Shown here: one piece after another, positions 4,021-43,680 of the stretch
How positions within the stretch are numbered: the stretch's first letter is position 1
Layout of the letters: every line of letters begins with the position of its first letter
From: Nemertoderma westbladi
Taxonomy: Eukaryota; Animalia; Xenacoelomorpha
Length of the DNA stretch: 48,443 bases
Direction: 5' to 3'
Assembly: GCA_032718475.1 (NCBI GenBank)
Contig: JAUCBJ010008906.1
Span: 1 to 48,443, forward strand
Notes under the pieces: model-generated
The model's input: the letters and a program-made list of their open reading frames with translations, nothing else
What the model was told of the DNA's origin: nothing
The model's database searches: none
Made by a program: the position numbers and the translations under genes

Positions 4021-4324
4021 AAAGTTAACCCCTTCTTGTGTCTTTGTTAACGGTATTTAATCTTATTAATCATTAGTTTAACAAATTACTTAATAAATTA
4101 ATCGGCTTTTCATGTTTTTTCCGCTGGATTTCCATCTATTTCTTATTTTTCTTTCATTTTTTTGTATGTAAAACCAATTCTTAGAATAACTACTAAAATA
4201 AAGTTGTGTCAGTCAACTATACATACTCATCAATTTCATTACTACATTATTACTAATTAGTCTAATATTATTTTTATTGTATTATTATTATTAAATTATT
4301 TCATCGTTACCTGTTTTCATTTAG

Positions 4325-4986
4325 GAACATGCGCGGAGTTACAAGCAAACGGAGAAGTTCTTCCTGCCACTGTAAACAGTCTCAACGGTTATCTTCGTTA
4401 CGACGATCAACAAGGAGATCAATGGATCGTCATTCAACGAAGAATGAATGGGATTGTTGATTTCTATAGAAATTGGGATGAATACATAGCTGGATTCGGA
4501 GACATAAACAACGAGTTTTGGCTTGGCCTCGAAAACATTCACCAGCTCACCCAGCAGGGAGGAGTTCAACTTAGAGTAGAACTTTGCTACAAAGACGTAA
4601 GATATGCAGCAGAATATTCATCCTTTGAAGTTCTATCTGCTGACACCAACTACACGCTAACGATATCAGGATACAATGACCAGGATTCTACTGCCGGCGA
4701 TTCGCTGACCAACGATAATTCTCCAAACCAAGTCCACAATGGAATGGCGTTTACAACATATGACAATGATTTTGATAAGAAAACGGGTAACTGCGCTCAG
4801 GAGTTTAGCGGTGCATGGTGGTATAATAATTGCCATCTATCCAACCTTAATGGATTATTTGATGCTGGAAGCTACCAACAGGGACTTGGATGGAGGTCTT
4901 TATCTGATACTTACCCAGTTGAAATGGTTGAAATGAAAATACTGATTGAAGGTTGGTACCTATTATTAGCGAATCAATTCCGCTAG
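4325..4986 (+). CDS. Exon encoding a fibrinogen C-terminal (FReD) domain; ficolin/angiopoietin/tenascin-like protein, upstream exons not identified
   Basis: Acceptor TTTTCATTTAG ending 4324, then an open frame TCAELQANG...WIVIQRRMNGIVDFYRNWDEYIAGFG..EFWLGLENIHQLT..HNGMAFTTYDND..NCAQEFSGAWWYNNCHLSNLNG..EMKI. Bases 4964-4986 come from the E1 LTR; a possible donor AG|GTTGGT lies at 4951/4952. Confidence 0.9.
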
Positions 4987-5514
4987 CCACCCCACAAGAG
5001 TTAGCTTTAAGCAATATTGGGAACACGAGGTTGATTGCCAATATCAACCTCGTATCACCCCAATAAAATGGGAAGGAGAAACCCCAGAGAACATACACAC
5101 AATGGGGGTCAGGGGTTACACCTCTGAGGGAGAGGGAATGACAGCAGCAGGGGGAAACACTCCCAGGGAGATGAGAGGGCGACAATTAAGTTATCAGCCA
5201 ATGGGGGGCAAGCATCGACTGAGTGACACAATACGGCCAACGGTGCAATACATATTACCGGTAACCGTGTCATTTCATTCAGTTATCCCAGTACAGCTAG
5301 AGGGCAGAGCGGTGACTTTCATTACCGTCATTGCCGCTACCATCACTAGTAGTATATTCAGTCAACTAAACATGAACTGTGCTACCTGTCAATATTATCT
5401 CATTTATACTATACTTTATATCTATATTAACAATCGGAACGACAACCATAACAAACTCGCGGGGACGCGTAAGTGAATACACCGGATAAATCGGGATCCC
5501 CGGATCCCGTCACA
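4964..5514 (+). repeat. 5' LTR of E1
   Basis: Near-identical to 19698-20244; starts TA (TG in the 3' copy), ends GTCACA; CCAAT near 5199 and Inr-like TCAGTT near 5279. Confidence 0.95.
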
Positions 5515-5591
5515 GTAACGAAATCCAAAGTTGCCCAAGACTGTGACTGCCAGCCACCAATCTAAAGAAAAGACAGGACTGCCAAGATAAC

Positions 5592-14088: not shown

Positions 14089-17000
14089 ATGGCAGCTTGT
14101 TGTGGCTGCAATGGACGGTCCGGGCGCTGCAAGAAATGTATATGCATCAGGAATAGCTTGCGGTGCTTATCATGTGCCCCAGGAAGAAACGAAGAAACAG
14201 TAATTGCAAGAACAGCCAGCACCCTTCCTCTCAACCTCTACCGGATCGCCACGAACGACCTTCGTTCTCCCAGATGTCAGTCTCACAGCCGCTTAACTCT
14301 TGCGCTGCTTTGGAAAGTCCAGCGGACGATACATTGATGGATCAGGACGAAACTATACTGGGTGGATCCCTGATCGTCCAGGATACTCCGCTAGCTGCCA
14401 GTGCGTCAGCATCATTGAACTCTCCAGTTTGGTCTCCGGGCGCAGCACGAGCGAGGGCCAGTGCCATCATATCTAGGATTCGGAGCCCCGGTACAGGGTC
14501 TGCTTTGGGGTCAGCAGTTAAAGACGTTATACTTCAGACCCCGAACTTTTCAGATCCCCGAGCAGTCCAGTCCGTTCCCTCAGCAGTCCAGTCTGGTCCC
14601 CTTTCAGGCCAGTCGGGTCCCCCTGCAGTCCAGTCGGTGCGCCCAGCAGTCCAGTCGGGGCCCCCATCAGTCCAGTCGGTGCGCCCAGCATTCCAGTCGG
14701 GTCCCCCATCAGTCCAGTCGGGTCCCCCATATGTCCAGTCCAGTCGGGTCGCCCAGCAGTCCCAGTCGGTTCCCCCATCAGTCCAATCGGGTCCCCCAGC
14801 AGATCAGTTGGGTTCCCCATCAGACCAGTCGGATCCCTCAGGAGTCCAATCGGGTCCCCCAGCAGTCCAGTCGGGTCCCCCTTCAGACCAGTCGGGTCCC
14901 TCAGGAGTCCAGTCGGGTCCCCCAGCAGTCCAGTCAGGTCCCCCATCAGACCAGTCGGGTCCCTCAGGAGTCCAGTCGGGTCCCCCAGCAGTCCAGTCGG
15001 GTCCCCCTTCAGACCAGTCGGGTCCCCCATCAGTCCAGTCGGGTCCCCCAGCAGTCCAGTTGGGTCCCCCTTCAGACCAGTCGGGTCCCTCAGGAGTCCA
15101 GTCGGGTCCCCCAGCAGTCCAGTCAGGTCCCCCATCAGACCAGTCGGGTCCCTCAGGAGTCCAGTCGGATCCCCCAGCAGTCCAGTCGGGTCCCCCTTCA
15201 GACCAGTCGGGTCCCCCTTCAGTCTGGTCGGGTCCCCCACCAGTCCAGCTGGCACCCTCGGCATCTATCGGTCGACCTCTGCCATCCTCCCTGTCCAGTG
15301 TTGGACTCACTTCAACAATGTGTCAGCCCCCTACAGTCGCGGGTCAGTCGTCCATCCCAACTCACACTGTATCTTGGTGTAATACAACTCTACCAGTCCA
15401 GGAGATCTCTAGTTCTGTAGAGAAGGTGTACAACACCATCGTACGCCGGAGACCCAACCTATTTTTAGTTCATATGGGCGCTGGAGGTAGAGAGTTGGTC
15501 TCCGAGTATACCAGGCTGGTTAAACTGTTTACATCAGGATCAGAGTTACAGGTGATCGCCCTTTATGCACTGATGTGCATACCAGCGCTCCTGTTACAGA
15601 AACCCAGTAGGTCATCCAACGCAGCGACCCACAGGAAGATTCTGGAACGTCGTCTGTGTGATTGGCGGGCTGGTCGATTCCTACAGCTGTTGGCGGAAGC
15701 GAGAGCCATCAAAAAAACCTTCCAACGTCCCGGGTAAAGAAATCAGATACCAAGGCGCTCCGGAAGGCGTTTGTACGCCACATGCTGACTGGTAACGTGT
15801 CAGCGGCCACCTGTTGTCTCTCCGATATCAACAAAGGTAGTCCCATGAAACTGTCAGACACCTTTGTTTATAAGGACGGGGCTACCCGACGGGTGAGGGA
15901 CGTTCTGCTGGAGAAACGCCCGCCAGCCGCCCCAGCTGACAGTTCAGTGCTCCTGACGGAGTGGGATGGAGCGCCAGAACACCATAACGTCGTGTTCGAG
16001 CGGCTAGATGGCTCCCTCATCCTATCGAGTCTTCTCCGGATGAGAGGTAATGGTGCTGGTCCTTCTGGGTTGGATGTCCAGGGGTGGAAGCACATCCTGA
16101 CCAAGTTCCGCCAACAATCCGTTGACCTGTGTGGTGCCATAGCCGATATGGCGAAACGGATTAGTCAGGATGTGCTGCCCTCTGGCGTGATGTCGGCGCT
16201 CCTCTCCTGTCGGCTGTTGGCGCTCGATAAGTGCCCCGGAGTTCGTCCGATCGGCATCGGCGAGGTTCTACGGAGGGTTATCGGGAAGGCGGCGATGCGT
16301 TGCATCACAGAGGATCTTCAGAGCGTTGGTGGGTCGACTCAGCTGTGTATGGGCCAGAAAGCTGGCATAGAATATGCCATACACAGTCTGAACGAGACGT
16401 TCTCCGAGGACGACTGCGAGGCCGTCCTCCAGATCGACGCCACCAACGCATTCAACTCGCTGAACCGCGACGCCGCCATCCATAACATCCGCCACGTCTG
16501 TCCCTCCCTTCACACCATTGTAACGAACTGTTACAGCGAACCAACGCAACTGTTTGTAGGGGGGGAGACTATCTACTCCAGGGAGGGGTCGACCCAGGGG
16601 GACCCGGCTGCGATGCCAATGTTCTCCGCTGGGACGCGGCCATTGCTAACGGAGATCGCTGCCACCTGCGTGGTGAACCAGAAATGGTTCGCCGATGACG
16701 GCAATGCGGCGGGTGCCCTCCGGGAACTAAGGAAGATGTGGGATGTGGTGGTAACGCGTGGTCCGCTGTACGGGTACTACCCGTCCAAGTGCCACCTGAC
16801 GGTGAAGTCGGAGAAACTGGCGGAAGCAGAGGAGATATTCGCGGGAACCGGGATCATCATCTCGGCGGGGGGGGGGGGGGGGGGAACAAACTCCTAGGTG
16901 GTGTGGTGGGGTCTGCTGAGTACCGCCAGGCCTACATCACCTCCAAGGTCGAGGAGTTCGTCGCAGAGATCGACAGAATTGGCGACATCGCCAGCATCAA

Positions 17001-19697: not shown

Positions 19698-20244
19698 TGT
19701 TAGCGAATCAATTCCATTAGCCACCCCATTAAGCAATATTGGGATACGAGGTTGATTGCCAATATCAACCTCATATCACCCCAATAAAATGGGAAGGAGA
19801 AACCCCAGAGAACATACACACAATGGGGGTCAGGGGTTACACCTCTGAGGGAGAGGGAATGACAGCAGCGGGGGGAAACACTCTCAGGGAGATGAGAGGG
19901 CGACAATTAAGTTATCAGCCAATGGGGGGCAAGCATCGACTGAGTGACAATACGGCCAACGGTGCAATACATATTACCGGTAACCGTGTCATTTCATTCA
20001 GTTATCCCAGTACAGCTAGAGGGCAGATCGGTGACTTTCGTTACTGTCATTGCCGCTACCATCACTAGTAGTATATTCAGTCAACTAAACATCAACTGTG
20101 CTACCTGTCAATATTATCTCATTTATACTATACTTTATAACTATATTAACAATCGGAATGACAACCATAACAAACACTTTCACTAGCGGCGGGGACGCGT
20201 AAGCGAATACACCGGATAAATCGGGATCCCCGGATCCCGTCACA
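19698..20244 (+). repeat. 3' LTR of E1
   Basis: TG...CA, followed by TSD CCTAT. Confidence 0.95.
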
Positions 20245-20429: not shown

Positions 20430-20551
20430 GGCGAAGATCGCAAAATTTCGCAAACGTCGCTATTTTTGCGAAGATTGTGAAAATCGTGAAATTTCGCACA
20501 TTTCGTGATCTACGTGATATTTTGTGTTTAACAATACTATAGGTGGAGCTA
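20430..20551. repeat. Left end of the 57-bp satellite array, cut by E2
   Basis: ATATTTTGTGTTTAACAATACTATAGGTGGAGCT matches the monomer at 41856-43680. Confidence 0.85.
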
Positions 20552-21689
20552 TGTAAAAGCTTTTGCGGACATAACAAGTCATTTTTACGCAATGCGCAGA
20601 ATACTCTAAAATAACCCTAAATTTGTCCAACTACGCGACGGGAGGGAATTAGAGCCAGGATGACGAAATCTGTCAGCTCATTCTTTGTGGACGTGGAGTT
20701 TCTTTGTTCTGCCTTATTCAGCCAATCAGAGCAATTTTCCCTTTATGTCGAACAGAAACCTATGGAAACTCGCACAATGCATTACGGTCTTTGTTTACTA
20801 TTTTCTGAGCATCAGAGCCAGCTCGGAATTTTCTGTGCTTCTGTGTAGAAGTTTCAGACTTTGGCCTAGGAACATCAGATGGCCTTGATTATAAGAACAT
20901 AAAACTATTAATGCATTGAACATTGCTGCACATGGCATCGCATCACATTGTCATACTTGGATACACATTTCATAACTGCATAAGTAACACATACTGACTG
21001 TTCACCGCATTATTTTACTTCTGTTATTAATTGTTGTTATATTAATGGATATTGCTGTTATATTTGGAGAATACCGATAAATAATCATAAACCCCTCAAT
21101 CTTCTTGATTACTGAGGTAAGAGGAACAGGTTTACCGGTAGCAACTGCAACTTACATAATATTGGTTTTGTGTGAATTAAATGCTATTTCATAATCCCTA
21201 CATGTGTCAGTTGCGATCCTCCTTATATATGATCAAATTCAGTGACGGTCGACAGATTAGTGTGAAGTAGTGTGAAGTAGTGTGAAGTCGTGTGAAGTAG
21301 TGTAAGGTTAATAAAGCATCTCCTAAAGAATGCGCTATTTACGAAACTTTGTGGCCATCTAGTTGTGATTAGTATAAGTCATAACTCTGTTTTTATACTT
21401 AAAGCGCCACGTCCTAAAGGAACTGTTAATATTTCCCCGAAAGTAAATATATTTGTCAAAGATTATATAGTAACGATCAATCGAATAATACAGTAGGTCT
21501 ACACTGCAATAACTCTCAAGGAATCCGAATCCAGTCTCCCACACCGTGGGTCATACGCCGCGCACGGACTGGCTTCGGCTGATGTAACTTCAGTACACTA
21601 GGTAATTGATATAGGCTAAAGTCAATTTATAAACAAGAGGACAACTAAAATTGGCAGGTTAAACTGCTAAAGGTCTAAAAGCGCGAATA
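20552..21689 (+). repeat. 5' LTR of E2
   Basis: TGTAAAAGC...GCGCGAATA (CA in the 3' copy); near-identical to 40732-41855; contains a variable 10-bp repeat AGTGTGAAGT. Confidence 0.95.
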
Positions 21690-22384
21690 TTAATAGTTTT
21701 CAGTTTCTTGATTGCACAGTAGGCAATAAATATATTTTGTCTAATGTTCTGGTAAGAACATTAATAGTCTTCAGGTTTCTTTATTGCGCTGTAGGCAATA
21801 AAGTCGAATGCACCGGTCGGACGTAGTCCTAGCTGCCCAACCACACGAACCGGTACTTACAGGTACAGCAGTATTATTTCGATTATGATATATTGTATAT
21901 TAGTAGGCTGTTTAAGAGAGTAGGGACTGTACACCCCTTATTTCTTTTAGAGTTTATTTATTTCTGTCAGTTTTATTTAGCTTTAAGTATAATATTGAGC
22001 AGAGGGCGTGTAAGCCTGCTCAGATTGTATAAATAATTTGTAGGCCGGATTGTTGTCTAACTGTTGTTAGGTCTGAGGAGATTGCAGTGTGTATAGAGTG
22101 TCTGTCCGATAAAGTGCTAGTTAGGAAAGTGGGGGCATCCAGTGCTGTAAGGTAAATCCCCCCCGAAAGAATAAGTCGTACTACTTGGTTAGAACTCCTA
22201 CTAACTAACCATTTCGGAGTCTGCATCTACTGTAGTTTATTTAGGCTTGTCAGTAGTCTGCCAGCATTTGGTCTGTATTTTGTTTGAATACTCTGCACGG
22301 GTAGCGTAATATTTATTATTCAGAGTCTATGTGAGTAATCGCAACCTCTAATTCCCCAAGTTTATTCCTACAGTAATTGTGCTT

Positions 22385-22422
<38 letters not shown>

Positions 22423-22929
22423 CGTATTTTATAGTTTTATTATTATTAAAAACAAACAATTCAACAATTACAATTAAACAACAACATTAAAAACTGCATA
22501 CTACTAGTATACTTAGATTACTTGATACCCCCCCCCCCCCCCCCCCCCAGCCACAGACCCCACTACTAAATACTATAGCCACTTCCTAGGCGCCAACATT
22601 TCCGAACACAGAAGCATGGCTTATTTTGTGCTAGAAAATATATTATTTTTAATACTTAATTTTTTATTTTAATGTCATATTTTTTTTTTTTTTTAATTAT
22701 GCTTATTAATGCTACAAACATTTTTTTGTAGTAGTATGGTATAATACTACACAATTTATTTGTCTAGATTTGCCAGTTTTGGTTGAGTATTCATTGACAG
22801 CTGATCACCATCTTACTTTATTTTTGCTGTAATGGTTGCCGTATACATAATAGGAATAGGATAGATGTAATATTTTTATTGTATGTTTATAGAATGTGTA
22901 TTTCATGGAATATACAGTACGGTACAGAG

Positions 22930-25900
22930 TTATTGGAGATTGATAAGGTATGTCTTTAGAAGTTTTTTTACTTTGCATAACGATTTTGAGGTTTGAATTT
23001 CGGCCGGTATGATGTTCCATAGTTTGACTGCCTGATATGATATTGTGGATTTTCCGTAGTTCGTTTGATAAAGTGGGAGCCGATAGTGGTGGTTTTGTGC
23101 CGCGCGAGTTGGATACTTATGTACAGTACTTATTGGAACTAGGGTTGATTTAAGTCCTTCTGGAAGATGTTGGAGTCCTAATCGGTGACGGAAAATGTAC
23201 AGTAAACAACGATACTTATAGAGTGATTTAAGTTTTAGTATGTTTAGATTCTTAAACAACTCATGGGTAGGAAAGTTATATGGTTTTAAAAAGATAATTC
23301 GGATGTATCTCTTTTGTAGTTTAATTAACTGGTTTAGAACTGTATCGTGTTGAACCTCATGACAATTACCCCAGGCTGTTAAGGCAAAGGAAATATGGGA
23401 CTCGATCAATGTGTGATAAAGACTTAATCTGATTTTAAATGGTATGAAGTGTTTGATTTTATTTATTATCCCAATATTTTTTGATATTTTAACTCTGATG
23501 TGATCGACGTGCCTATTCCACTTTAAATTTTCACTAATGTAAATACCCAGGAATTTTATATGATTTACTTGTTCAATTTTGCAACCTCCGATTTTTAAAT
23601 ATTTTCCTAGTGATGATTGGTGATTAGAATTATTTTTAAATATGATGTACTTTGTTTTTGTGATATTTAAGGATAATTTATTTGTATTTAACCAAATCAT
23701 AACTTTCTCTAGTTCGAGATTTGCTTCCCGTAAAATTTCAGAAATGTTTTTACCGGTTAGAAATATATTACAATCGTCAGCAAAGAGGATAAAATTTAAC
23801 GTTTTTGATGAAGAAATTATGTCGTTCATGTATATTAAAAATAATAAAGGAACTAGTATTGATCCTTGGGGTACACCGCATTTGATTAATTGTTGGTTTG
23901 ATAAAGTTGATTTGTATTGAACTGACTGATATCTCTCTTCCAGGTAGCTTTTAAACCATTGCAAGGCTAATCCCCTTATTCCATAGTGTTCGAGTTTTTT
24001 AAATAATACATTGTGATCGACCGTATCGAACGCTTTCGATAGGTCTACGAATATTCCCAGAGTCGATTTTTTCGCTTCAGTGTTTTCCGTGAGGTTTTGA
24101 AGAAGTAGAGATATTGCTTGGTCGACTGATCGCCCTGTACGGAAACCGAATTGAGTGTCAATAAGTAATTTATGTTTGGCAAGAAATCCACTGAATTGTA
24201 AATAGACAGTCTTTTCTAAAAGTTTTGACAAAAAAGGTAGAACACTAATGGGGCGATAATTTTGAAACAGATTGGCGTCACCATTCTTAAAAATTGGTAC
24301 AACTTTGGAGAGTTTCATATTTTTAGGTACAATACCAGTTTTTAAACTAAAGTTAATTAGATGAGTGACGGGATCTGATATATATTGGATTATTTGTTTA
24401 AAAATTATAACATTTACCCCGTCTAGACCAGTGGAAATTTTGTTAGGCAGTGCATTGACCATATTTATGACTTCTTCATTGGTTACCGGACTGAAAAAAA
24501 TGGACTCTGATAAGGAATTTCCTAGATAGCTTTCTACCGTACAGTCGGTTTTGGGGATTTTATTAGCGAGATTTTGCCCAACTGCTGCAAAGTAGGTATT
24601 GAATCCATTAGATATTTCTGTTTCATTAGATGATAGTTTATTATTTACAAGAAATGTACTTGATATTTTACTTTTGTGTTTATTATTCATAAGTTCTCTT
24701 ATTACTCCCCATGTTTTTGAGATGTTGTTTTTGTATTTTTCAAACAGATTTGAGTAGTGAAATTTCCTGGCATTACGTATAATCTGGGTTAGGTTATTTT
24801 TGTAGTTAATATATAATTGCCTATTTTGTATAGTAGGATTTTTAAGGAGGATACCGTATAGTTGGTGCTTTTGTTTTATCGATGTGAATATGGACTCTGT
24901 AATCCACGGTTTGCTTTCGTTGATTATTTTGCATTCTTTTAGTGGAAAACATGTGTTGAATAAATTCTGATACTTTTGCATAAAATTATTGTAGGCGTTG
25001 TTTATATCGTCTTCTAGTGTAATGTTATCCCATCTGTTATTTTCATGCAACGATTTCAAAAGTTTTATAAATTTTTCCTTATTTTGGACGGATATATCGC
25101 GTTTGTAGTATATTTTATGTTTCCCAGGAGGACTGTTTATTGGTATATTACATTCGACCATAATCGGTAGGTGATCCGAAATGTCAGCCAACAGTATACC
25201 TGTGTGTACAACTGAGCCATAATCATTTGTTATAATGTTATCAATAGCTGTTGCCGAGTGGTCTGTGAATCTGGTGGGTTTGTTTATTAGTGGCACAAAG
25301 CAGTGGTTTGTTATCTTTTCCAAGAATTCCATTGGTATAGATGATTTATTTATGTGTAGGATATTGATGTTAAAGTCTCCAAGGATATAGGCAATTTTAC
25401 CTTCAGAATTAATTTTTCTTAGGCTTTTTTCTAAGTTATCGAAGAATGGTACAGTATCTGTCCCTGGTGGGCGGTATAGACAACCAAATATAACGTTTTT
25501 ATTGTTTTCCCGTTGCCATTCGACGAAAGTGGATTCATAAGTGTTTGGAATAAAATTGCCGATATCAGGTCTTGGAGAACAGTTTAAGTTATCTACAATG
25601 TACAAACCACATCCACCACCCGTTTGATCTTTTCTGTGGTTGTAAAAAAAATTATAATTATTTATTTTAAATGTGTCGTGATTGATGTTTGTTTGCCATG
25701 TTTCAGAAACCGCAATCACAGGGAAATTTAGGGGAATGCATTTTAAAGTTTCCTTAAGTTCCTCAAGATTTTTATTCAGACTCCGTATATTACAGTGAAA
25801 CATGGCAATGCTTGTTATAGAATTTTGTTGGATAGATGTTAAGTCGCGGTAGTATTGGGTATCTAAGTCTGCATTAAAATAATTACTGTCAGGGTCATTG

Positions 25901-26220
25901 TCTGTTAAATTATCGGTATCTTGTTCAAAAATGTTTGTATAATGAGAGTCTAGTAAATCCATGTTTATTACGGAAGGTAAGCGGTAATCAGCTATCGTAA
26001 GTAGAAATTCGTTTTGATCTGTAATTTTGGTAAAGGGTAAGTTATCTTCAATACAAAAAAGGCAAATCTAGTCACTCAATTGCTGCAGGTAATTTTTATC
26101 TGCTTTTTGGTTTCTACCAGGTAAACAATTTAAGTGGAAAGATTTATAGCAGCAATTACACTTTATAAGACATCGTTGTTGTATAATTTTTGAGCAAATT
26201 TCACAACTACTCCGCGTCAT
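22930..26220 (-). CDS. LINE ORF2: PHD finger + AP endonuclease + RT; one premature stop at 26068-26070, then 1010 aa open
   Basis: HCNIRSL, VSETW, GGGCGLYI, YRPP, GDFNI, IDNI, SDHLPI; VVPIFKNGD..NYRPISVLP, QFGFR, DLSKAFDTVDH, GVPQGSIL, FADD, KFLG. Upstream in frame from ATG 26220: CEIC..CNCC..FHLNC..*ICLFC. Confidence 0.93.
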
Positions 26221-26759
26221 TAGAAGTGGTATAGACTAAAACTACAGTAACAGTATTATTATATTACCCCAATACTTAATCCCGTTTTACAGTGAAATTA
26301 ACCCCTGAGTAAATTAAATTAACTACCTGAATATGAACTGTAGGCCTACCGGTAAACCTACCACAACAATCAACCCCCACTGCAGGTAATGTTGAATTCT
26401 ATATAAGGCGGTAAAAATCCCACTAATAAAGTATTGTTGCCTAGTTTATTCCCAGGAAAGACTCCCAAAAAAAAACTACTTATTATATACTTATTATAGT
26501 AATAAAGTACAGTTGTTTCCCAAAAAAAACTATATCTAGTAAAGCCAACTAAAACTAATAAGATATGTTTAAACTAAACTAATAAAATAAGATTGTACCG
26601 GCACTGCAAAAACAAAAACCTATAGAAATACACAGACAGTTTGACAAAGGCGAAGTGTTAGGTAATATCAACATAAAAGTTTTTCCCATACAGAATCGGC
26701 TCATCTGTATGCAGATAAACCACAAGGGGGAACTAGGTAGTGAGTGAAGAGCAAGCGAT

Positions 26760-27674
26760 TTAAGTAGTTTTCATTAAGCGAGATTGATTCCTGTCTCTTC
26801 GCGCTTTACGTTCTTCCCGAGTGAATGTTTTCACTCGCTCCAAGTCAGCGTGAACCATTATTGGAATTGGTCGGTCTGCGTCACCGATTGCGTACAGACG
26901 GCCATCCCGTGACCACCCTATACCTTTGATTCGGATCTTCCGTAGTAGATCCGACCGCGTGGTTGTCAGCGATTCCGTTATGTTATAATCGGTATTCCGT
27001 AGACGATTCGCTTGGGAAAACACACGGGCACGCACACGGTATCGCACAAATTTCACCATGATTGCCATTGGCTTATCGCTACTACCGGTACCTATTCCCG
27101 AACGCAGGCCCATTGTAGACTCAGTGTTACGTGGTGACAATCTATGACATCGGTCAAATTCCGTTTCCGGAATTTGGAGTCCGATTTGGTCCCGGAAAAA
27201 CGCTTGAACTATATTGTAGGTGTCATCTTCGGTTTCCTTGATTCTTTGTTGCACGCCATGTACGAGAATACAGTTCCGACGTGAGTACTGTTCCGCATCA
27301 TCTAAACGATGGGTAAGGACGTCTTTGACATTAATAAATTCGCCACGGATTTCTACCAGACGCTTTTTCATTGACTCAGTCTCGAAATTCACGTTATGCT
27401 TGATTGATGCTACCAGTTCTCTTTCTTCCTCCTTGTCGAATCCGAGAAATTTACTGTCGGTAGGTCCAGGATTATCGTCTTTATCGCTATTCGCATGTCG
27501 CTTGTTCAGTTCTTTACTTATAACTTCTGCGATCCTTAAGTCAAGATTGTTGAAACTGACTTCAAAGTCGTCGAGTCGAGATATTTGTTCGCTTATGGAT
27601 TTGTTAAGTTTATCAGAGTCGTTAACGGAGCTGTGGTCGTTTTTTGATTTACGGGAATGGTTTGACTTCGTCAT
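26760..27674 (-). CDS. LINE ORF1 (coiled coil + L1-like RRM/CTD nucleic-acid-binding protein)
   Basis: LDDAEQYSRRNCILVHGV, FDRCHRL, AIMVKFVRY, ITESLT..R, WSRDG; lies upstream of ORF2. Confidence 0.88.
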   Translation of the reverse strand: MTKSNHSRKSKNDHSSVNDSDKLNKSISEQISRLDDFEVSFNNLDLRIAEVISKELNKRHANSDKDDNPGPTDSKFLGFDKEEERELVASIKHNVNFETESMKKRLVEIRGEFINVKDVLTHRLDDAEQYSRRNCILVHGVQQRIKETEDDTYNIVQAFFRDQIGLQIPETEFDRCHRLSPRNTESTMGLRSGIGTGSSDKPMAIMVKFVRYRVRARVFSQANRLRNTDYNITESLTTTRSDLLRKIRIKGIGWSRDGRLYAIGDADRPIPIMVHADLERVKTFTREERKARRDRNQSRLMKTT

Positions 27675-29056
27675 TGGGATGAATTGATGCGATATCAGTA
27701 TATAGATAATTAAATTGGAAGATTACATTGGCTGATTGGTTGGGCCGATCTGTTGGATGGTGGAATTCTTTCAATCGCCGTTAAGTCATTGGTTGTCTGT
27801 GTAAATCACAGATTCATATTTCAGTATTTTGCAGTGCTTTACAGCTGTCTTTTTACAGTAGGCCTAACTAAACTGAAAAAAACTTGTTATACATACCGTT
27901 ATAGTTAAATTAACCCCGGTACTACATCAGGACTGCTTGGCGTAGGTAAAGACTGGTGATTTTGTGCTCCGGTCACTCCAGCAGATACCGTGGTTCTTTT
28001 GGCTGTTCAAGTATATTTAACTGCTGGTTATTTGTTGTACAAGTACTTGTACCTAACTTAGGGTTTAGAGTACAGTGCTTTCCGAAAGTAATTTAGTGTG
28101 TAGGCAGTATATTTGTGTTGTAACGTGGTTAATAGGCACGTTAGCTCTGGTTGGCTTCGGTAATTAACCTCTAGGTAGGGACACTCCGGGTACATAACGT
28201 AGTACTTATAGAGCTAAGACTATAAGTCGTCAGACGGTGGTATTTCCTTATCTGGACAACGCAACTTACTTACTACTGCTTTATTGTTTTCAAATACTGT
28301 AGTTTCCTGTCAGTTAGTAAGAACCAGAAATTCTAACATCTTGTTAGGCTGGTTCGTAGATTTCTTGTAAAATTACCCTAAAAAATTGTACGTGTAACTT
28401 TTATTGTTTATTTAGAGATTGCAATCTCAAACTATAATTGTAAGTAATTTGTAGTGATAAGTAACTTAGTAAAGTAGAATTATCTGTATTAGTGTCTAAC
28501 AAGTAGCACTCCACTGAGAGCGTTCAGCTTCTGTGTAGTGACTCCTTATCCAGAAATAATAACATTTATTTCAAATATTGTCAAAACCCCTTGTACGGGT
28601 ATATATTTATATATATTATATATTATATATATTATATATTTATAAATCAACTCAAACAGATTTATAAAATAGTAGGCCTGTTATAAATCAAATAGGTCTT
28701 AATATCAGTTGAACTACTGCTTAATATCAGTAATAAAGTAACGGGAAGTAACCCTAAAATTCAGAAATTCAGTTATTATTAAATAATTGACATTACCGGT
28801 ATTTACGGTAAGCTTATTATATTTATATAAATTTAGGCTGAAATTATATACCGGTATTCTCTGACTGATCCTAGTCTGTAAATAATACTTATATATATAC
28901 TATAAGTGTATACCGGTATTTTAATATGTTATATAGATCACGTTACACTGAGTAACGGTATCGGTATCTAACTACTAGGCTTACAGTTGATATTGATTCT
29001 TCTAGACTTGCTTTAACTGCCATTATAGTAGTAGGCATTCAACTGTAAAATAAATC

Positions 29057-33049: not shown

Positions 33050-36000
33050 ACGACATTAACCAGTTGTATGATGAGGAAAATGTCTTAGATATCCTCACTG
33101 AGAACCAAACTTGGTTAAACCAAGCCAACCTATGCCATCTTATCAATCAACATGGCGGACAATTAACTTATAATGACGAAGTAAACGAAGTGATAGATCG
33201 ATACAATAACAAAATCCGTGATGAACATGCCGTACGATTCTTTACTCAAGAAGCCGTAGAGCCTAATTCCTACGACAAAGCCTTGTCTGTCGAGGAAGAG
33301 AGAGCCAATCAGATTCAGGAAACGACCACACATTATCTGAAGGATGAAGGTCGCTATGAGATTGGTCTTCCGTTCCGACGGCGAGAACCCAGCTTTGCAA
33401 ATAACCGACCTTTAGCGGAAAAGAGAATCGCACAACTACATCGGCGTCTTACGGCCAACATTCAAGCCAGGGAAATGTATAAAACCCAGCTGAAGAAATT
33501 TATTGATAAAGGATACGCGGAGCTAGTTCCGGAAGAAACACCCATAACGGAAAGAACGTATTATCTAACACATCATTACGTTCCCAAGCCCGGTAAACCC
33601 AACGAAGTCCGGGTAATGTTTGATGGCTCTGCCCTTTACATGGGTCAATCCCTTTACTCAGAACTGTAGCCGGGACCCAACTTACTCCAATCTTTGTTGG
33701 GAATATTATTGAGACTGCGGCAATATTCTATCGCATTCGCTTCGGACATCGAAGGCATGTTCTTACAAGTCAAGGCGCTGGATAGGGATCGAGACAGCCT
33801 ACGATTTCTGTGGTGGCCTGAAGGAGACCTCAACCGATAACCGGTGGAGTACTGGATGACCATCCAGGCTTTCGGGATCATCTCGAGCCCCTCCGAACGC
33901 TTGTTCGGTAGTGCATACCACTGCCGATGACAACCGAGATGCCTTCTCTAAAGCGGTTATCGACAACATCAAACGGTATATATACATGGACGACAATTTA
34001 AAGTCCCTCCCATCGGTGGAAGAAGCCATTGATGTTGCCAAGGGAACGGTAGAGTGCTTGCAACGCGGTGGATTTCGGCTAACCAAATTCACTAGTAACT
34101 CCCGTTTCTGGAATCGATCCCGGTAGAAGACCGAGGTGTTAAAGATCTGGACCTCATCAAGGACGATCTTCTGGAAACCAAGATGCTTGGATTAAAATGG
34201 GACACCGAGAGAGATATCTTGTTTTTCCAGTTAAAACAGCGAGATAATCCAGTTAGAACTAAATGGATTTGTCTAAGTATCCTGAGCACTTATTTCAATC
34301 AATTGGGATTTATTAGCCCAGTTATATTAGTTGCTCGGAGCTTAGTGCAACAAATGTGGCTCGAAAACCACTCGTGGGATGATCCACTTAAGGGAGAACT
34401 GCTAAAGAAGTGGATGAAATGGGAAGATTCTCTACCATCCATCGAGAACTTTAAGATTTCCCGTTCATATTTTGGTCACGTTCTCCCCACGTATTCCTAT
34501 CAACTCCATGTGTTTGGAGACGCCAGCGATATGGGAATAGGTATAGTAGCCTACCTGAGGGTTGAAACTCCGGATGGAATTAAAGTTGTCTTGGTCGCCT
34601 CTAAGCCCCTAATAAACAACAAACTACGAGTTCCTCGAGCGGAGTTAAAGGCGGCTCTATACGCTACAGCCATTGGCCGGAATGTAACAGAACAGATCGA
34701 CTATCCACTGGAGAAAACTGTCTATTGGACTGAAGCTTCACACGTTCTGGAGTATATAACAAATGAAGTCTGTCAGTTCAGCATCTTTGTTACCAACAGA
34801 GTAGCCATTATACTCAGTTGCTCTAATGCCGATCAATGGAGACATTGCCCTGGGATGATCAATCCAGCCGACATCGCCTCCAGAGGAGCAACTCCTCAAG
34901 AACTGATAGATACTGATAGAGGATGAATGGCCTTCTCATCTTACCACGGCTGAGATTAGACAAGCCAAGGGAGCGGAGAAAGTCAAACCTAAAACCCGGA
35001 CGAGTAAATCAAAGTTATTTAAACCCGTGATAGATCTGTCTGTACTACACATCTCCGGGGACGACGCTGTGGATCAAAACTCCCCCAGCACGAACAAATC
35101 TGTTATAGAAATCAGGGAAAGAGACTGGAAATCTGGAACACCAGATGTCTCGCAAGGACTCTCCCCTCTCCTACAGAGAGCAATAAATCATTATAGCTCC
35201 TGGAATCGGCTTTGCAAGGCCGTTGTGCATCTTAAAAGATGTCTCCATCATCACTATTCCAGTATGAAGATCGCTAGTGATACCCATCCAATGATATCCG
35301 AAAAGGTCCATGCTATTAAAGACCTTCCCGCTTATAAAGTGTCTGATAGGTTTCTGACGGAGAAGATCAGTTACCAAGAGCATGAGGATACCAATAAGCA
35401 GATACTGAGACTCCTGCAATGCTACGAAGATTCCGATAAGTATTTCCTGTTGTTGAGAAATCCACAGATGCGCTTAAGGGATCGTTTCTCTAGCACCATG
35501 ATAGATGGGTTAATACGTGTTGGAGGGAGACTAACTAATGCTCCATTGTCCTTTGACACTAAGTTTCCCATACTCATTAGAAATCTTGAAATACAAATCA
35601 AGATGATTGTAGATGTTCACAGTAGACTTTACCATGCAGGTAGAGAACGAGTTCTTAGCGAAATTCGAACTCGCTATTATTTCCATAAGCCCTGTAGAGC
35701 TCTGAACCAAGTTCTTAGGAACTGTATACCCTATAGGAAAGCATTTATTATGCCTTTAACACAGAGAGAGGCAGAATTACCTAGGGAACGCGTAAGCTTC
35801 TATGAACCACCCTTTACTAATACTGGTGTGGATTTATTTGGCCCTATTGAAGTATATCGTGCTAGGACTATAGTCAAGCGATGGTGTATCATCTTTGTCT
35901 GTATGACTTGTAGAGCGATCTTCATACTGAGTTTATGCCGACAGATCGCTCGTTTTGGGACTAGCAACACTATGAGATCCGACAAAGGAACGAACTTCAT

Positions 36001-36794
36001 TGGCGCCAATAATGAGATCAAAGCTTACGTGAAAGATTGGAACCAAAGACAGGTGGACGATCAGCTAAGGGTAACAGCATCTAGCTGGACCTTCAATGCC
36101 GCCGACGCCCCTTGGTGGGGAGGAAGTTGGGAGAGATTAATACGGACCGTGAAGACCGCATTTCACTTTATAGTGCCGTGCCGCGCGTATCTCACCGACG
36201 AACTTTTGCGGACGTTAATGGAAGAAATCGCCGCCTATCTCAACTAGAGACAGCTTTTGTCAGTGTCATCGAGTCCCGACTCCCTAGAAGCGCTGACACC
36301 TGCGCATTTCCTACTAAAGAAGCCTGTAGCCATGCTCCCGCAATCAGAAATCATGGACGGAAACGAATACTGCCAACAAACTTAAGCAACTTATGCAGTT
36401 GTTGTCCCGTCGTTTCGCTGACCATTTCGAAAAACATTATCTTCCTACGCTACAACTTCGAACAAAGTGGTTTGCGCAGCAAGAAAACGTCAGCACCGGA
36501 GACATGGTCCTTATCGTGGAATCAGATCTTCCACGTAAGAGGTGGCAGACAGGTCGTATCATCGAGACTCATATATCCGATGATGGTTTAGTGCGATCGG
36601 TAGAACTCGTCGTCATGCGACGTAACTTTAAGAAACCTGGAATTGTATTCGAAACACAACAACTTAATCGCCCAGTTGGTCGTTTATGTATACTGGAAAG
36701 AGACCGAGAGTTATCCGGAAACTATGGAATGCAAGATACTCTTCCCACGACCACCTCCCTAATCCAACAAACATCTAGGGACTCCCCAACATAA
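33050..36794 (+). pseudogene. RT, RNase H, integrase and DUF5641-like region of E2, with many stops and frameshifts
   Basis: GRYEIGLPF, YYLTHH..VRVMFDGSA, DIEGMFLQV, LRFLWW, YMDD; FGDAS, PRAELKAA, NPADIASRG; TGVDLFGP, SDKGTNFIG, APWWGGSWERLI; YLPTLQLRTKW..DGLVRSV. Confidence 0.94.
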
Positions 36795-38364: not shown

Positions 38365-40653
38365 CTACTACATTGGCGAGAGGCACAGCGACAACAGTAC
38401 ATCAGCGCTGAGGATCTTGCGCTGTCCGGGGGCACAGAGGAGGCAGCGACGACTGCTAGCCTAAATATTATTAATTATAATATCGAAAAACTCATATAGC
38501 AGCTGACTGAGTTGATAGAAGATGATCTTGGTATCAGGGAGTGATATACCCTACCATTGCAAGCGTTTGTTGATAGTTTAATAAGCGGCGACGCTAGTCA
38601 ACATACTACCGAGGACGATGGCCATTATATCGAACCGCCAATGTCAAAGGAACAGCTCACATGTGAATTAGACTATAGAAAATTCACCGCTCGCTATACG
38701 CATCGTAATGGTACGTATATGGACTTCTTAACTATTGGTCATCCTATCGATTTACATGATACGGACAATGTAGACACCGAAAGGGAAATGATTCTATTTA
38801 AATATCATACCCAGCGGAGTCGGAATGATAAACTGATAATCGAACACGTAAATTCTATTCGAAATCGACTCGAAAGAGAAGACGTTGAAGAGCCGGATAA
38901 ACGCAGTGACTTCAACAAATATTTGGAATTCCTGAGAGAAACATAACTCAACGTAGCCAGTCAACAAAATCTAGAAACTCGATATCCTCAAGGTATACAT
39001 CATAACCCTATGATAGAACTCAAACGACTCTATTTCACTATGATGTATCTTACCGCCGATCGACCGCTACCTGTTGTACCGGATAGCTTCGAACAGATGG
39101 AGGAATATTGTAAAACTGGAGAAAGATCACCCGCATTTCCCCTACAAGACGTGCGTCTTTGGTATTATTGTGTTGAATGCCCTAGACCCAACCAACAAAC
39201 GGAAAGACATAAACTAAACGCTAAACACAGTTTTACTCGCTATACTTATGGGAGTTTCGAGCGAAACTTGTTCGACATATCACCTACGCTCGCTCGACTC
39301 AAACGATCCTTAAATAAACCTATAATCTGAGTTCCGGAATACTTGGTCAGACCTCCCCATTTCCTGGTGAGACCTCAGACTCTTGATCCTAAGTGTATGA
39401 CAGATCCTCCTGAACTGTACTCATTGTTCAAAGATCTAGTAGTGTTACCCGAACAATTAGTCGGTGGCACTTCGGTTGTGGGCTCCCTAGATATTCGCCC
39501 ATCCTACCTAGCCGGATTGGGACGCGGACATCTAATATCGCCGTTCAACCCGTATAATCGTCCCAGTTTAACCCCGATACAACCCGTCACCGAGGTGGAG
39601 GAGAGCGTTGTACGAAACGCGTTAGACGCTATTCGACAAAAGATCGGAAAGGGAACCTACGATTGTTTAGATAAACGTAAATTGCTGCAGCAAGTCCAAG
39701 CGGTAAAGGAATTGGCCTTACCCCAGTTCGAACAGGAAATCCAGAATCTCGAAGAAGATATCGAACTTGGACGAACCTACTCTCTACAAGAGTTTTTGGA
39801 TGAACGCTTCCAACGACAAGCGGAGGAAAATCAGCTCGAGGAATGGACGAGAGAGAATAAGCAGCTTTAGCCCAGCCAGAAGCTCAAACCCTTATGACTG
39901 ATCTCTATTCCAAAACCATTATTCATCCTTCGATGGTTCCCCATTTCGGAGACAAACTCTTCGCCACGGTACAACCCCAACCGGTTGATATCAACTTAAG
40001 ATCTAGAGATCTTATCGCTGACGCTCCTATGTTACAACATCCACCAATTGAGGCCGCTCATGTCGACGGTATACTCGTTGAACCTCCGGACAATCGAGCG
40101 GATCTTGTCCATCGTATGGTACACAAGGTCAACCTACGCGCTAGACCTTTACCGAACTCATTTTATGGAATCAAAGACCACCCTTATTATGTCAATTTAA
40201 CTCAATATTATATGGTGAAACCGGAAGATCCTACGCACAGTTTAAAGTTTCTACCATTGATAAATCCAGCTACAAGAAGTTCATAGACGACCATATGAAT
40301 ATAAAGCCAGAGAACGCGAGTTGGAGAGAACCATAAAACCGAGGAAATTTCTCACTACACACGGTCAATCTACCGCTATCGTGCAAACGACCCATCAGGG
40401 ACCAGTAAGAGCTGCTGTCCTGAAACGCGCTCAAAAGGTTGTTCGACCACGTTCCACTGAGGTTGATATCGATCAACCGGGTACCTCGATCGGCGGATAC
40501 ACCAACCGTAATCCGAAACCTTCCGATGCAATTGTATTGCACCCCTCACTCAGGAGTTATAGCCCTCCTAGTAAAGTGGCCCGCCCCAAAGAGAAAAGAA
40601 CTCTTACTAGCCTCAAAAAACTTTGTAAACGCCGTTCACATAAGAAGGACTAA
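38365..40653 (+). pseudogene. Decayed additional ORF of E2, product unknown
   Basis: ORFs 38557-38946, 39010-39330 and 39343-39870 share one frame separated by single stops; 39894-40286 and 40321-40653 follow after frameshifts; ends ~80 bp before the 3' LTR. The start is uncertain. Confidence 0.65.
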
Positions 40654-40731
40654 TAGTTTAGAGTATTTTTGTATTTTAGAAACTGTGATTTTTTATATTT
40701 TATAGACTTAAATCCCATTTTTTGGGAGCGG

Positions 40732-41855
40732 TGTAAAAGCTTTTGCGGACATAACAAGTCATTTTTACACAATGTGCAGAATACTCTAAAATAGCCCTAA
40801 ATTTGTCCAACTACGCGACAGGAGGGAATTAGAGCCAGGATGACGAAATCTGTCAGCTGATTCTTTATGGACGTGGAGTTTCTTTGTTCTGCCTTATTCA
40901 GCCAATCAGAGCAATTTTCCCTTTATGTCGAACAGAAACCTATGGAAACTCGCGCAATGCATTACGGTCTTTGTTTACTATTTTCTGAGCATCAGAGCCA
41001 GCTCGGAATTTTCTGTGCTTCTGTGTAGAAGTTTCAGACTTTGGCCTAGGAACATCAGATGGCCTTGATTATAAGAACATAAAACTATTAACGCATTGAA
41101 CATTGCTGCACATGGCATCGCATCACATTGTCATACTTGGATACACATTTCATAACTGCATAAGTAACACATACTGACTGTTCACCGCATTATTTTACTT
41201 CTGTTATTAATTGTTGTTATATTAATGGATATTGCTGTTATATTTGGAGAATACCGATAAATAATCATAAACCCCTCAATCTTCTTGATTACTGAGGTAA
41301 GAGGAACAGGTTTACCGGTTGCAACTGCGACTTACATATTATTGGTTTTGTGTGAATTAAATGCTATTCCATAATCCCTACGTGTGTCAGTTGCGATTCT
41401 CCTTATATATGATCAAATTCAGTGATGGTCGGCAGATTAGTGTGAAGTCGTGTGAAGTAGTGTGAAGGTTAATAAAGCATCTCCTAAAGAATGCGCTATT
41501 TACGAAACTCTGTGGCCATCTAGTTGTAACTCATAACTCTGTTGTCATAACTCTGTTTTTATACTTAAAGCGCCACGTCCTAAAGGAACTGTTAATATTT
41601 CCCCGAAAGTAAATATATTTTTCAGAGATTATATAGTAACGATCAATCGAATAATAAAGTAGGTCTACACTGCAATAACTCTCAAGGAATCCGAATCCAG
41701 TCTCCCACACCGTGGGTCATACGCCGCGCACGGACTGGCTTCGGCTGATGTAACTTCAGTACAGTAGGTAATTGATATAGGCTAAAGTCGATTTATAAAC
41801 AAGAGGACAACTAAAATTGGCAGGTTAAACTGCTAAAGGTCTAAAAGCGCGAACA
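40732..41855 (+). repeat. 3' LTR of E2
   Basis: TG...GCGCGAACA followed by TSD AGCTA. Confidence 0.95.
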
Positions 41856-43680
41856 AGCTACGCGAACGTCGTGATCTTTGTGAAATTTTGTGATTACCAA
41901 TACTATAGGTGGAGCTTCGCAAACGTTGCGATCTTCGTGATATTTTGTGCTTACCAATAATATAGGTGGAGCTTCGCGAACGTCGCAATATTTTGTGTTT
42001 AACAATACTATAGGTAGACCTTCGCAAACGTTGCGATCTTCGCGATATTTTGAGTTTAACAATACTATAGGTGGAGCTTCCAAACGTCGCGATCTTCGCG
42101 ACATTTTGGTTTTAACAATACTATAGGTGGAGCTTCCAAACGTCGCTATCTTCACGATATTTTGTGTTTAACAATACTATAGGTGGAGCTTCCAAATGTC
42201 GCGATATTCGCAATATTTTGTGTTTAAAAATAATATAGGTGGAGCTTCCAAACGTTGCGATCTTCGCGATATTTTGTGTTTAACAATACTATAGGTGGAG
42301 CTTCCAAACGTCGCGATCTTTGTGATATTTTGTGTTTAATAATACTATATGTGGAGTTTCGCAAACGTCGCGATCTTTGCGATAGTTTGTGTTTAACAAT
42401 ACTATAGGTGGAGCTTCGCAAATGTCGCTATCTTCGCGACATATTTTGTGTTTACCAATACTATAGGTGGAGCTTCGCAAACTTCACGATCTTTGTGATA
42501 GTTTGTGTTTACCAATACTATAGGTGTAGCTTCCAAACGTCGCGATCTTCGCGATATTTTGTGTTTAACATTACTATAGGTGGAGCTTCCAAACATCGCA
42601 ATCTTCGCGATATTTTGTGTTTAACAATACTATAGGTGGAGCTTCCTAACGTTGCGATCCTCGCAATATTTTTGTGTTTAAAAATACTATAGGTGGAGCT
42701 TCGCAAACTTCGCGATCTTTGTGATATTTTGTGTTTACCAATACTATAGGTGGAGCTTCGCAAACTTCGCGATCTTCGCGATATTTTGTGTTTACCAATA
42801 CTATAGGTGGAGCTTCGCAAACTTCGCGATCTTTGTGATAGTTTGTGTTTACCAATACTATAGGTGGAGCTTCGCAAACGTCGCGATCTTCGCGATATTT
42901 TGTGTTTACCAATACTATAGGTGGAGCTTCGCAAACGTCGCGATCTTCGCGATATTTTGTGTTTACCAATACTATAGGTGGAGCTTCGCAAACGTCGCGA
43001 TCTTTGTGATATGTTAGCTTATCCAATTCCGCTAACACCCCATAAAGTGAGCCGTTAAGCAATATTGGGAGCACGAGGTTGATTACCCAACCTCGTGTCA
43101 CCCCAATAAAGTGGGAAGGAGAAACGCACAATAGGGGTCAGGGGTTACACCCCTGACAGAGAGAGAATAGCAAGGGCGAAGGGAAGCACTTCAGAGGGGG
43201 GCAAAGGGTGACAAGTAGGATATTAGCCAATAGGGGGGAAGCATCGACTGGGTACAGTAACAACGGCCAAACCGTGCAATATATATTACCGGTCGATGCA
43301 GCATTCATTCAGTTTACTCAGTCAGTTCAGTAGGGTGGAATGGTGACTTCTATCACCGTCCGCTACCGCCATCACATGTAATACTTATCTACCGGTAACC
43401 GTGTCATCCATTCAACTGTGCTATATCAACTATATTATACCTTTATACATTTTACCGAACATCAGAACTCTTAACGTCTTAACGAACCTTTTCATATACA
43501 CGGCGGGGACGCGTAGATAGAAAACCCAAACGGATAAATCGGGATCCGTAGATCCCGTCACATGATAGTTTGTGTTTACCAATACTATAGGTGGAGCTTC
43601 GCAAACTTCGCGATCTTTGTGATAGTTTGTGTTTACCAATACTATAGGTGGAGCTTCAGAAACGTTCAGATCTTTGCGAA
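41856..43680. repeat. 57-bp tandem satellite (~22 monomers), interrupted by a solo LTR
   Basis: Monomer ATATTTTGTGTTTACCAATACTATAGGTGGAGCTTCGCAAACGTCGCGATCTTCGCG, with 56-bp variants. Confidence 0.95.
43012..43562 (+). mobile_element. Solo LTR of an E1-related BEL/Pao subfamily
   Basis: TGTTAGC...GATCCCGTCACA, 551 bp, colinear with but clearly diverged from the E1 LTRs; TSD TGATA (43007-43011, 43563-43567). Confidence 0.93.

What the first reader, a model, noticed from the sequence alone, without database searches (positions are those of the whole stretch)
20894..21750. Candidate self-priming BEL/Pao element: the E2 primer-binding position is complementary to its own LTR, not to a tRNA 3' end
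Seen: after the 5' LTR end (21689) there is no TGG. The next 11 nt, TTAATAGTTTT (21690-21700), are the exact reverse complement of AAAACTATTAA inside the LTR (20901-20911; identical in the 3' LTR at 41081-41091). The adjacent LTR bases AGAACAT (20894-20900) also pair with ATGTTCT (21744-21750), giving 18 contiguous LTR bases paired around a looped-out segment. The 3' end of the paired strand sits exactly against the LTR-terminal CA, the geometry needed to start minus-strand synthesis. Known: S. pombe Tf1 and related Ty3/gypsy elements self-prime from an 11-nt piece of their own RNA; BEL/Pao elements are generally described as tRNA-primed. Inference: a self-priming BEL/Pao lineage. I am not aware of a description of one but cannot check the literature. 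The motif is AT-rich and lies ~350 nt into the LTR, so its position relative to the transcription start is unknown.
Basis: partly seen in the sequence, partly recalled or inferred. Interest (0 to 1): 0.88.

Follow-up and report, generated by a model that had tools for sequence, protein, structure and literature searches.

The report
Self-priming BEL/Pao retrotransposon lineage
A decayed jumping gene of the BEL/Pao group has no tRNA-type landing site; the 11 letters at that position match a stretch of its own terminal repeat, as in nearly all relatives checked, so these elements likely start copying themselves with a piece of their own RNA instead of a host tRNA.

Summary
The core observation holds. 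After E2's 5' LTR (20552-21689) there is no TGG, and 21690-21700 is the exact reverse complement of LTR 20901-20911 (chance 0.1-0.4%). The neighbouring BEL/Pao E1 has the same geometry with different letters (9 nt), downstream of a predicted promoter. Among metagenome relatives whose LTR end was fixed independently, 13 of 14 families carry a 10-15-nt match to their own LTR; 12 of these need an LTR intron spliced out. Non-cognate controls reach 10 nt in 2 of 110 pairs. In E2's family, conservation stops exactly at 20911. Against: E2's AU-rich helix is weak (predicted pairing 0-0.3), no transcription start or host tRNA set could be tested, and a TATA-like motif at 20890 could put the motif in U3. 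Best reading: Tf1-like self-priming, widespread in aquatic BEL/Pao. I found no description of it in 10 literature searches; ICTV lists the family as tRNA-primed. This scan already reported it in other genomes.

The parts
20547..20551 (+). left target-site duplication AGCTA (right copy 41856-41860)
20552..21689 (+). E2 5' LTR, 1138 nt; starts TG, ends TA in this copy (family CA)
20720..20729 (+). CCAAT-box-like motif in the LTR (consensus recalled)
20890..20895 (+). TATA-like TATAAG just upstream of the motif; if functional it would place the motif in U3
20901..20911 (+). candidate self-primer 3' segment, exact complement of the PBS; family similarity ends at 20911
21117..21242 (+). candidate LTR intron (AG|GTAAGA donor, pyrimidine tract and CAG acceptor); its junction does not build the PBS match in E2; splicing untested
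21310..21315 (+). AATAAA polyadenylation-signal-like motif
21690..21700 (+). PBS position directly after the LTR, non-tRNA type, complementary to 20901-20911
21756..21802 (+). degenerate tandem copy of LTR end, PBS and following leader
22386..27722 (-). nested LINE in E2's leader: poly(A) tail 22386-22422, endonuclease + RT ORF 22930-26067, upstream ORF 26760-27722 (outer edges approximate)
33235..36698 (+). broken BEL/Pao pol: RT (YMDD at 33983), Peptidase_A17, Integrase_H2C2, DUF5641, with stops and frame changes
40724..40731 (+). short purine-rich tract before the 3' LTR
40732..41855 (+). E2 3' LTR, ends CA; motif copy at 41081-41091, followed by C
5515..5523 (+). neighbouring BEL/Pao E1: non-tRNA PBS directly after its 5' LTR (4964-5514)
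20036..20044 (+). E1 3' LTR (19698-20244) motif, 9-nt complement of E1's PBS, at +37..+45 from a predicted Inr (CCAAT 19919, TATA-like 19970, Inr A 20000); the 5' LTR copy differs at one of the 9 positions
43012..43562 (+). solo LTR of an E1-related subfamily (about 70% identical), TSD TGATA; keeps the CCAAT/TATA/Inr spacing, motif letters changed

Best explanation
E2 is a decayed BEL/Pao retrotransposon whose 11 bases after the 5' LTR match a stretch of its own LTR, and its family likely primed reverse transcription with that stretch of its own RNA rather than a tRNA. Shown: the match, the absence of TGG, the same relation with different letters in E1 and in 13 of 14 bounded relative families, and the end of family conservation at 20911. 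Inferred: transcription starts upstream of 20901, so the motif lies near the RNA 5' end (R). Inferred: it anneals to 21690-21700, probably with help from Gag/nucleocapsid because the helix is weak. Inferred by analogy with Tf1: RNase H cuts just 3' of the motif (at or near 20911/20912) and RT extends the new 3'-OH across U5 and R. In most relatives the primer would exist only after host splicing of an LTR intron; E2, E1, L002, L023, L047 and L064 carry it contiguous.
For: Chance 0.1-0.4%. E1: 9 nt at offset 0 with unrelated letters, 37-45 nt downstream of a CCAAT/TATA/Inr set whose spacing is kept in a 70%-identical solo LTR. Relatives: 13 of 14 families with an independently fixed LTR 3' end have a 10-15-nt perfect self-match starting 2-5 nt after the LTR. 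In the 9 spliced families first found, a scan that asked only for GT+purine returned GTAAG donors in 9 of 9. Non-cognate pairs reach 10 nt in 2 of 110 and 11 nt in 0 of 110, against 9 of 11 cognate pairs at 10 nt or more. The core helix forms in predicted folds of 5 of 6 relatives (P 0.84-1.00). In E2's family, contigs of all 4 runs laid (3 samples) break away from E2 right after 20911, each continuing with C. L002, sister to one of E2's best protein hits (P0030), shows the contiguous offset-0 form like E2 and E1 (its LTR end is inferred).
Against: No transcription start, RNA or primer-cDNA junction was seen; the look-up of sequencing runs listed no RNA holder. TATAAG at 20890 lies inside the conserved block and would put a start near 20920, downstream of the motif. 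E2's helix is AU-rich (-7.5 kcal/mol, the weakest of 7 compared) and has predicted probability 0.00-0.02 in 10 folds and 0.30 in 3 shorter ones; L002 also gives 0.00. E2's PBS starts at offset 0 with TT, whereas bounded relatives start at offset 2-5 with GT or AT, so E2's primer end is uncertain. Pairing beyond the core is not significant overall (Fisher p 0.10, 13 families). E2 and E1 are long branches, so their exact place among these relatives is unsure. Host tRNAs, including mitochondrial ones, could not be screened (no genome). Covariation within the E2 family could not be measured.
Confidence: 0.58

Rival explanations
1. Self-supplied primer, but not from the 5' end in cis. The motif lies in U3 or 3' R and primes from the RNA 3' end, or it comes from a short LTR-only transcript (spliced in relatives, cut or polyadenylated in the LTR) that is packaged and acts in trans.
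For: TATAAG at 20890 could start transcription near 20920. Relatives keep the LTR intron although the primer needs it removed, which is simplest if primer and genome are different RNAs. Poly(A) signals lie 17-110 nt past the acceptor in 7 of 9 spliced relatives. The family is very high-copy, so LTR transcripts could be plentiful.
Against: In E1 the motif lies downstream of a canonically spaced promoter kept in two subfamilies. Cutting the genome's own 3' end would remove the R needed for strand transfer unless a second RNA serves as template (inference). In cis folding already forms the helix in 5 of 6 relatives.
Confidence: 0.2
2. The pairing is real and selected but structural (circularisation for strand transfer, a translation/packaging switch, or PBS shielding), while the primer is a host RNA such as a tRNA fragment, a mitochondrial tRNA or another small RNA.
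For: Host tRNAs could not be searched. Two relatives (L059, L061) show TGG within 1 nt of the LTR end. ICTV describes the family as tRNA-primed (PMC8742986).
Against: The paired strand sits exactly at the PBS position in every family and differs in letters between families, so each would need its own host RNA; most lack TGG altogether. L059 and L061 also have 10- and 14-nt self-matches. No tRNA or Rfam match lies in the LTR or leader.
Confidence: 0.17
3. For E2 alone the match is a chance AT-rich coincidence or a relic in a decayed element.
For: AU-rich 11-mer, weak folding; broken pol and nested LINE; geometry differs from most relatives (offset 0).
Against: Chance 0.1-0.4%. No majority variant at either strand among the 40 rows shown of 296. 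Sharp conservation edge at 20911. Same pattern in E1 and relatives.
Confidence: 0.05

Closest known systems
Tf1/Tf2 of Schizosaccharomyces pombe and the Tf1/sushi group (Ty3/gypsy chromoviruses)
   Same: No tRNA site; an 11-nt stretch of the element's own LTR RNA is complementary to the PBS (Tf1: first 11 bases, cut by RNase H between bases 11 and 12; PMC7175516, passages read).
   Different: Different superfamily (BEL/Pao). In E1 the motif ends about 45 nt after the predicted start rather than at base 11; for E2 the start is unknown. Most relatives need an LTR intron removed to build the match. Cleavage and priming are untested.
Tcn1 chromoviruses and TAR (Houba, Osr-1) Ty1/copia lineages of plants
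   Same: Self-priming predicted from PBS-LTR complementarity alone (PMC6317226, passages read).
   Different: Other superfamilies and hosts; the passages read do not mention splice-built primers.
Belpaoviridae / BEL/Pao as described by ICTV
   Same: TG..CA LTRs of 0.2-1.2 kb, RT-RH-IN order, Peptidase_A17 and DUF5641 domains.
   Different: ICTV gives an 18-nt PBS for tRNA-Arg or tRNA-Gly and tRNA-primed replication (PMC8742986, whole text); E2, E1 and the relatives sampled lack such a site.

Membership tests
BEL/Pao (Belpaoviridae) | LTRs with TG..CA ends and target-site duplication | tested here: met
   (TSD AGCTA; 3' LTR ends CA; 5' copy ends TA, family CA)
BEL/Pao (Belpaoviridae) | pol with RT, RNase H and integrase in this order, with Pao-type domains | tested here: met
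   PF05380, PF17921 and PF18701 in order; YMDD at 33983; hits of 31-38% to BEL/Pao polyproteins; no protease or gag domain was detected in E2 itself
BEL/Pao (Belpaoviridae) | 18-nt PBS complementary to a host tRNA-Arg or tRNA-Gly 3' end | tested here: not met
   no TGG after the LTR; this is the departure that makes the finding
BEL/Pao named subclade (Sinbad, Suzu, Dan etc.) | RT/RH/IN phylogeny with named reference elements | not testable with these tools
   no named references were held; E2 groups with unnamed proteins (98, FastTree) but is a long branch and unresolved
Tf1/sushi self-priming group | Ty3/gypsy chromovirus phylogeny | tested here: not met
   Pao-type domains; all homologues are BEL/Pao
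Tf1-type self-priming mechanism | PBS complementary to own LTR RNA, no tRNA site | tested here: met
Tf1-type self-priming mechanism | complement lies at the transcript 5' end, downstream of the start | tested here: inconclusive
   E1 motif at +37..+45 from a predicted Inr; E2 has candidate starts on both sides of the motif; no RNA data
Tf1-type self-priming mechanism | helix forms in the transcript | tested here: inconclusive
   predicted P 0.84-1.00 in 5 of 6 relatives, 0.00-0.30 for E2
Tf1-type self-priming mechanism | RNase H cleavage yields the primer that RT extends | not testable with these tools
   needs primer-cDNA junction data or biochemistry

The most novel reading that the evidence does not exclude
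A large, undescribed share of animal BEL/Pao retrotransposons replicates without host tRNA, and in most of them the host spliceosome builds the primer by joining two LTR exons into the exact PBS complement. Splicing would thus be a switch for reverse transcription, and the primer may be a separate short LTR transcript. E2 and E1 are contiguous-primer members of this system.
Probability: 0.6. Interest if true: 0.85.

Novelty: new variant of a known kind. Interest (0 to 1): 0.72.

Why it matters
It would overturn the standard description of BEL/Pao priming (ICTV: host tRNA) and show that self-priming, known from Tf1/sushi and predicted for some plant lineages, occurs in a third LTR superfamily that is abundant in aquatic animals. 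The splice-built form seen in relatives would be a new link between host splicing and the start of reverse transcription. It poses a testable puzzle: how is an intron that must be removed from the primer kept in the LTR? It would also mean that LTR finders requiring a tRNA PBS can miss or mis-bound these elements.

Tried and rejected
No host genome was held, so family copies, host tRNAs and within-family covariation could not be read directly. No RNA holder was listed; run X6, guessed to be RNA, gave only short contigs and was not used as evidence. Viral-contig scans found no relatives. ARAGORN found 0 tRNAs in the window and Rfam 0 matches at E up to 1 over 20500-22400, so no element-encoded tRNA-like primer was seen. 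A splice-built primer for E2 or E1 was rejected: best spliced match 6 and 5 nt. Leaving out E2's candidate intron did not change the helix probability (0.30 in 3 of 3 folds). Extended pairing beyond the core was not significant (2 of 15 families at p below 0.05; combined p 0.10 over 13). The unanchored scan of 40 loci was too noisy (46 of 300 non-cognate pairs at 10 nt or more) and was not used for counts. The TG that extends the duplex into the LTR end is not a family feature: E2's 3' LTR and the family loose ends have C there, and CpG decay is the likely cause (inference). The C after the primer end (13 of 19 relative families) is partly forced by how the match end is defined, so it is weak evidence. 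Of 70 loci, 41 had flanks too short or no resolvable LTR end. L031 was bounded but gave no match of 9 nt or more and does not end in CA; it counts as the miss. An atlas search of the extra ORF piece 38545-38943 gave only weak unnamed hits.

Full report
THE ELEMENT. E2 runs from 20552 to 41855, between LTRs of 1138 and 1124 nt (1090 matches, 27 mismatches, 28 gap columns) with a 5-bp TSD AGCTA, and sits in a 57-bp satellite. It is a decayed BEL/Pao element. Peptidase_A17, Integrase_H2C2 and DUF5641 lie in order at 34.1-36.8 kb, an RT YMDD motif lies at 33983, the frames are broken, and a LINE is nested on the minus strand in the leader. Its best homologues are BEL/Pao proteins at 31-40% identity. 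It is a long branch, and no named subclade could be assigned. Contig depth in three DNA runs points to a very high-copy family.

THE OBSERVATION. There is no TGG after the 5' LTR, and 21690-21700 is the exact reverse complement of 20901-20911, also present at 41081-41091. Only 15 of 19,000 internal positions have a match of 11 nt or more into the LTR, and simulated LTRs hold this 11-mer in 0.16-0.20% of trials (0.29-0.39% over four offsets). This 5' LTR ends in TA; family contigs show C at 21688 at more than 99% of depth. The second helix (20894-20900 with 21744-21750) has predicted probability 0.00 in all 8 folds that contain it, because 21742-21763 forms a local 9-bp hairpin (P 0.90-0.97). 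The leader also holds a degenerate tandem copy of LTR end plus PBS.

THE FAMILY. No assembly was held, so contigs were laid. Among the 40 variant rows shown of 296, none falls in 20901-20911 or 21690-21700. In a narrow lay of 20855-20975, all 4 runs (3 samples) have loose ends starting right after 20911, each beginning with C. Depth in X1 falls from about 13,000 at 20905-20909 to 46 at 20915-20919; part of the low depth further right may come from the end of the stretch, but one search also shows joints and contig ends at 20911. Conservation therefore ends at the last base of the motif. One minor variant deletes 36 nt of leader directly after 21700 and keeps the PBS whole. Covariation within the family could not be measured.

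A SECOND CASE IN THE WINDOW. E1 (LTRs 4964-5514 and 19698-20244, TSD CCTAT) is another BEL/Pao, 28% identical to E2 in the RNase H region. It also lacks TGG, and its first 9 leader bases match 20036-20044 of its 3' LTR; the 5' LTR copy differs at one of these positions. E1's LTR has CCAAT, TATA-like and Inr-like motifs at about -81, -30 and +1 (consensus motifs recalled; the Inr TCAKTY is also given in PMC3601003, passages). The spacing is kept in a 70%-identical solo LTR at 43012-43562, and the motif lies at +37..+45. For E2, Inr-like sites exist upstream (20814, 20856, 20878), but TATAAG at 20890 could start transcription near 20920, past the motif. This is the main open point.

RELATIVES. 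A metagenome scan with an alignment of 13 related proteins returned 70 loci. For 23 loci (14 families) the LTR 3' end was fixed by comparing both LTR ends, within a locus or between loci of one family. 13 of 14 have a perfect 10-15-nt complement of the sequence starting 2-5 nt after the LTR; L031 is the miss. Only one (L023) is contiguous. In 12 the match appears only after an LTR intron of 72-366 nt is left out, a test prompted by earlier scan notes e1-7811049 and e1-7809694. For the 9 spliced families found first, a scan asking only for GT+purine returned GTAAG donors in 9 of 9; L009 has GTGAG, and L059 and L061 have weaker donors. Four of the 13 share one PBS core and are not fully independent. 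With strict intron rules and one member per core, non-cognate pairs reach 10 nt in 2 of 110 and 11 nt in 0 of 110, while 9 of 11 cognate pairs reach 10 nt (L006 drops to 6 under the strict acceptor rule; E1 is 9). Six more loci fit with the LTR end inferred from the match itself (L002, L047, L064 contiguous; L003, L032, L048 spliced). L002 is sister to P0030, one of E2's best protein hits, and shows the offset-0 contiguous form like E1 and E2. The other 41 loci were not resolvable. The core helix forms in predicted folds of 5 of 6 relatives (P 0.84-1.00; L002 0.00), but only at 0.00-0.02 (10 folds) or 0.30 (3 folds) for E2, whose duplex (-7.5 kcal/mol) is the weakest of seven compared. Pairing beyond the core is not significant overall (p 0.10).

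MECHANISM. Best reading (0.58): Tf1-like self-priming in cis. A 5'-proximal LTR segment anneals at the PBS, is cut at its 3' edge, and is extended by RT. The pairing is shown at sequence level; transcription of the motif, cleavage and extension are inferred. Rivals: a self-supplied primer from the 3' LTR or from a short LTR transcript in trans (0.20), which would explain why relatives keep an intron the primer must lose; a structural pairing with a host RNA primer (0.17); chance or relic in E2 (0.05). Self-supplied priming of some kind thus totals about 0.78 for E2.

WHAT IS KNOWN. ICTV describes Belpaoviridae as having an 18-nt PBS for tRNA-Arg or tRNA-Gly, with replication poorly understood (PMC8742986, whole text). 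Tf1 primes from its first 11 bases after RNase H cleavage (PMC7175516, passages). Self-priming is predicted for plant Tcn1 and TAR lineages (PMC6317226, passages). A large BEL/Pao survey and the Sinbad paper hold no occurrence of PBS or tRNA in their main text (PMC3118150, PMC554778; term searches); PMC8220671 mentions PBS only generically (passages). Ten library searches listed no paper that, by title, abstract start or the passages read, describes self-priming BEL/Pao. Searches used a phrase that may not match the usual spelling with a slash. The library lacks most subscription journals and Repbase Reports, and I read no supplements, so a prior note may exist. I recall a report that C. elegans Cer7 encodes its own tRNA-like primer; this was not checked. 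This scan has eight earlier AI notes of the same phenomenon in other genomes and none on this DNA; they served as leads, not as support.

VERDICT. A real feature and a new variant of a known kind of mechanism. E2 is one of the weaker examples of it, and the clade-level pattern is strong. Interest 0.72.

Noticed in passing
window 5515-5523 and 20036-20044: The neighbouring BEL/Pao element E1 has the same non-tRNA, self-complementary PBS with different letters, downstream of a canonically spaced predicted promoter.
   Followed up: yes
LTRs of loci L003, L006, L009, L013, L014, L020, L021, L022, L026, L032, L046, L048, L056, L058, L059: The PBS complement is split by an LTR intron (66-366 nt, mostly GTAAG..YAG) and is perfect only after splicing.
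   Followed up: yes
window 43012-43562: Solo LTR of an E1-related subfamily in the 57-bp satellite; its motif letters differ, predicting a different PBS for that subfamily. E2 is also inserted in this satellite.
   Followed up: partly
window 20912-21000: Sequence right after the motif is highly variable among family contigs and starts to diverge exactly at 20912; it may mark the template-switch point of strong-stop DNA (speculative).
   Followed up: partly
window 38545-40653: A broken extra coding region between pol and the 3' LTR of E2 with no Pfam hit; an atlas search of one piece gave only weak unnamed hits.
   Followed up: partly
window 22386-27722 (minus strand): A LINE with a long endonuclease-RT ORF (1045 aa) is nested in E2's leader; further LINE-like RT pieces lie at 274-2746 and 15662-16897 (the latter inside E1).
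   Followed up: no
window 4261-4986: E1 is inserted at the end of a fibrinogen C-domain coding stretch.
   Followed up: no
window 14555-15248: A 21-bp tandem array (33 copies) inside a 526-aa open frame within E1, downstream of its integrase.
   Followed up: no
window 21117-21242: E2's LTR holds an intron-like stretch of the size seen in relatives, but its junction does not build the primer.
   Followed up: partly
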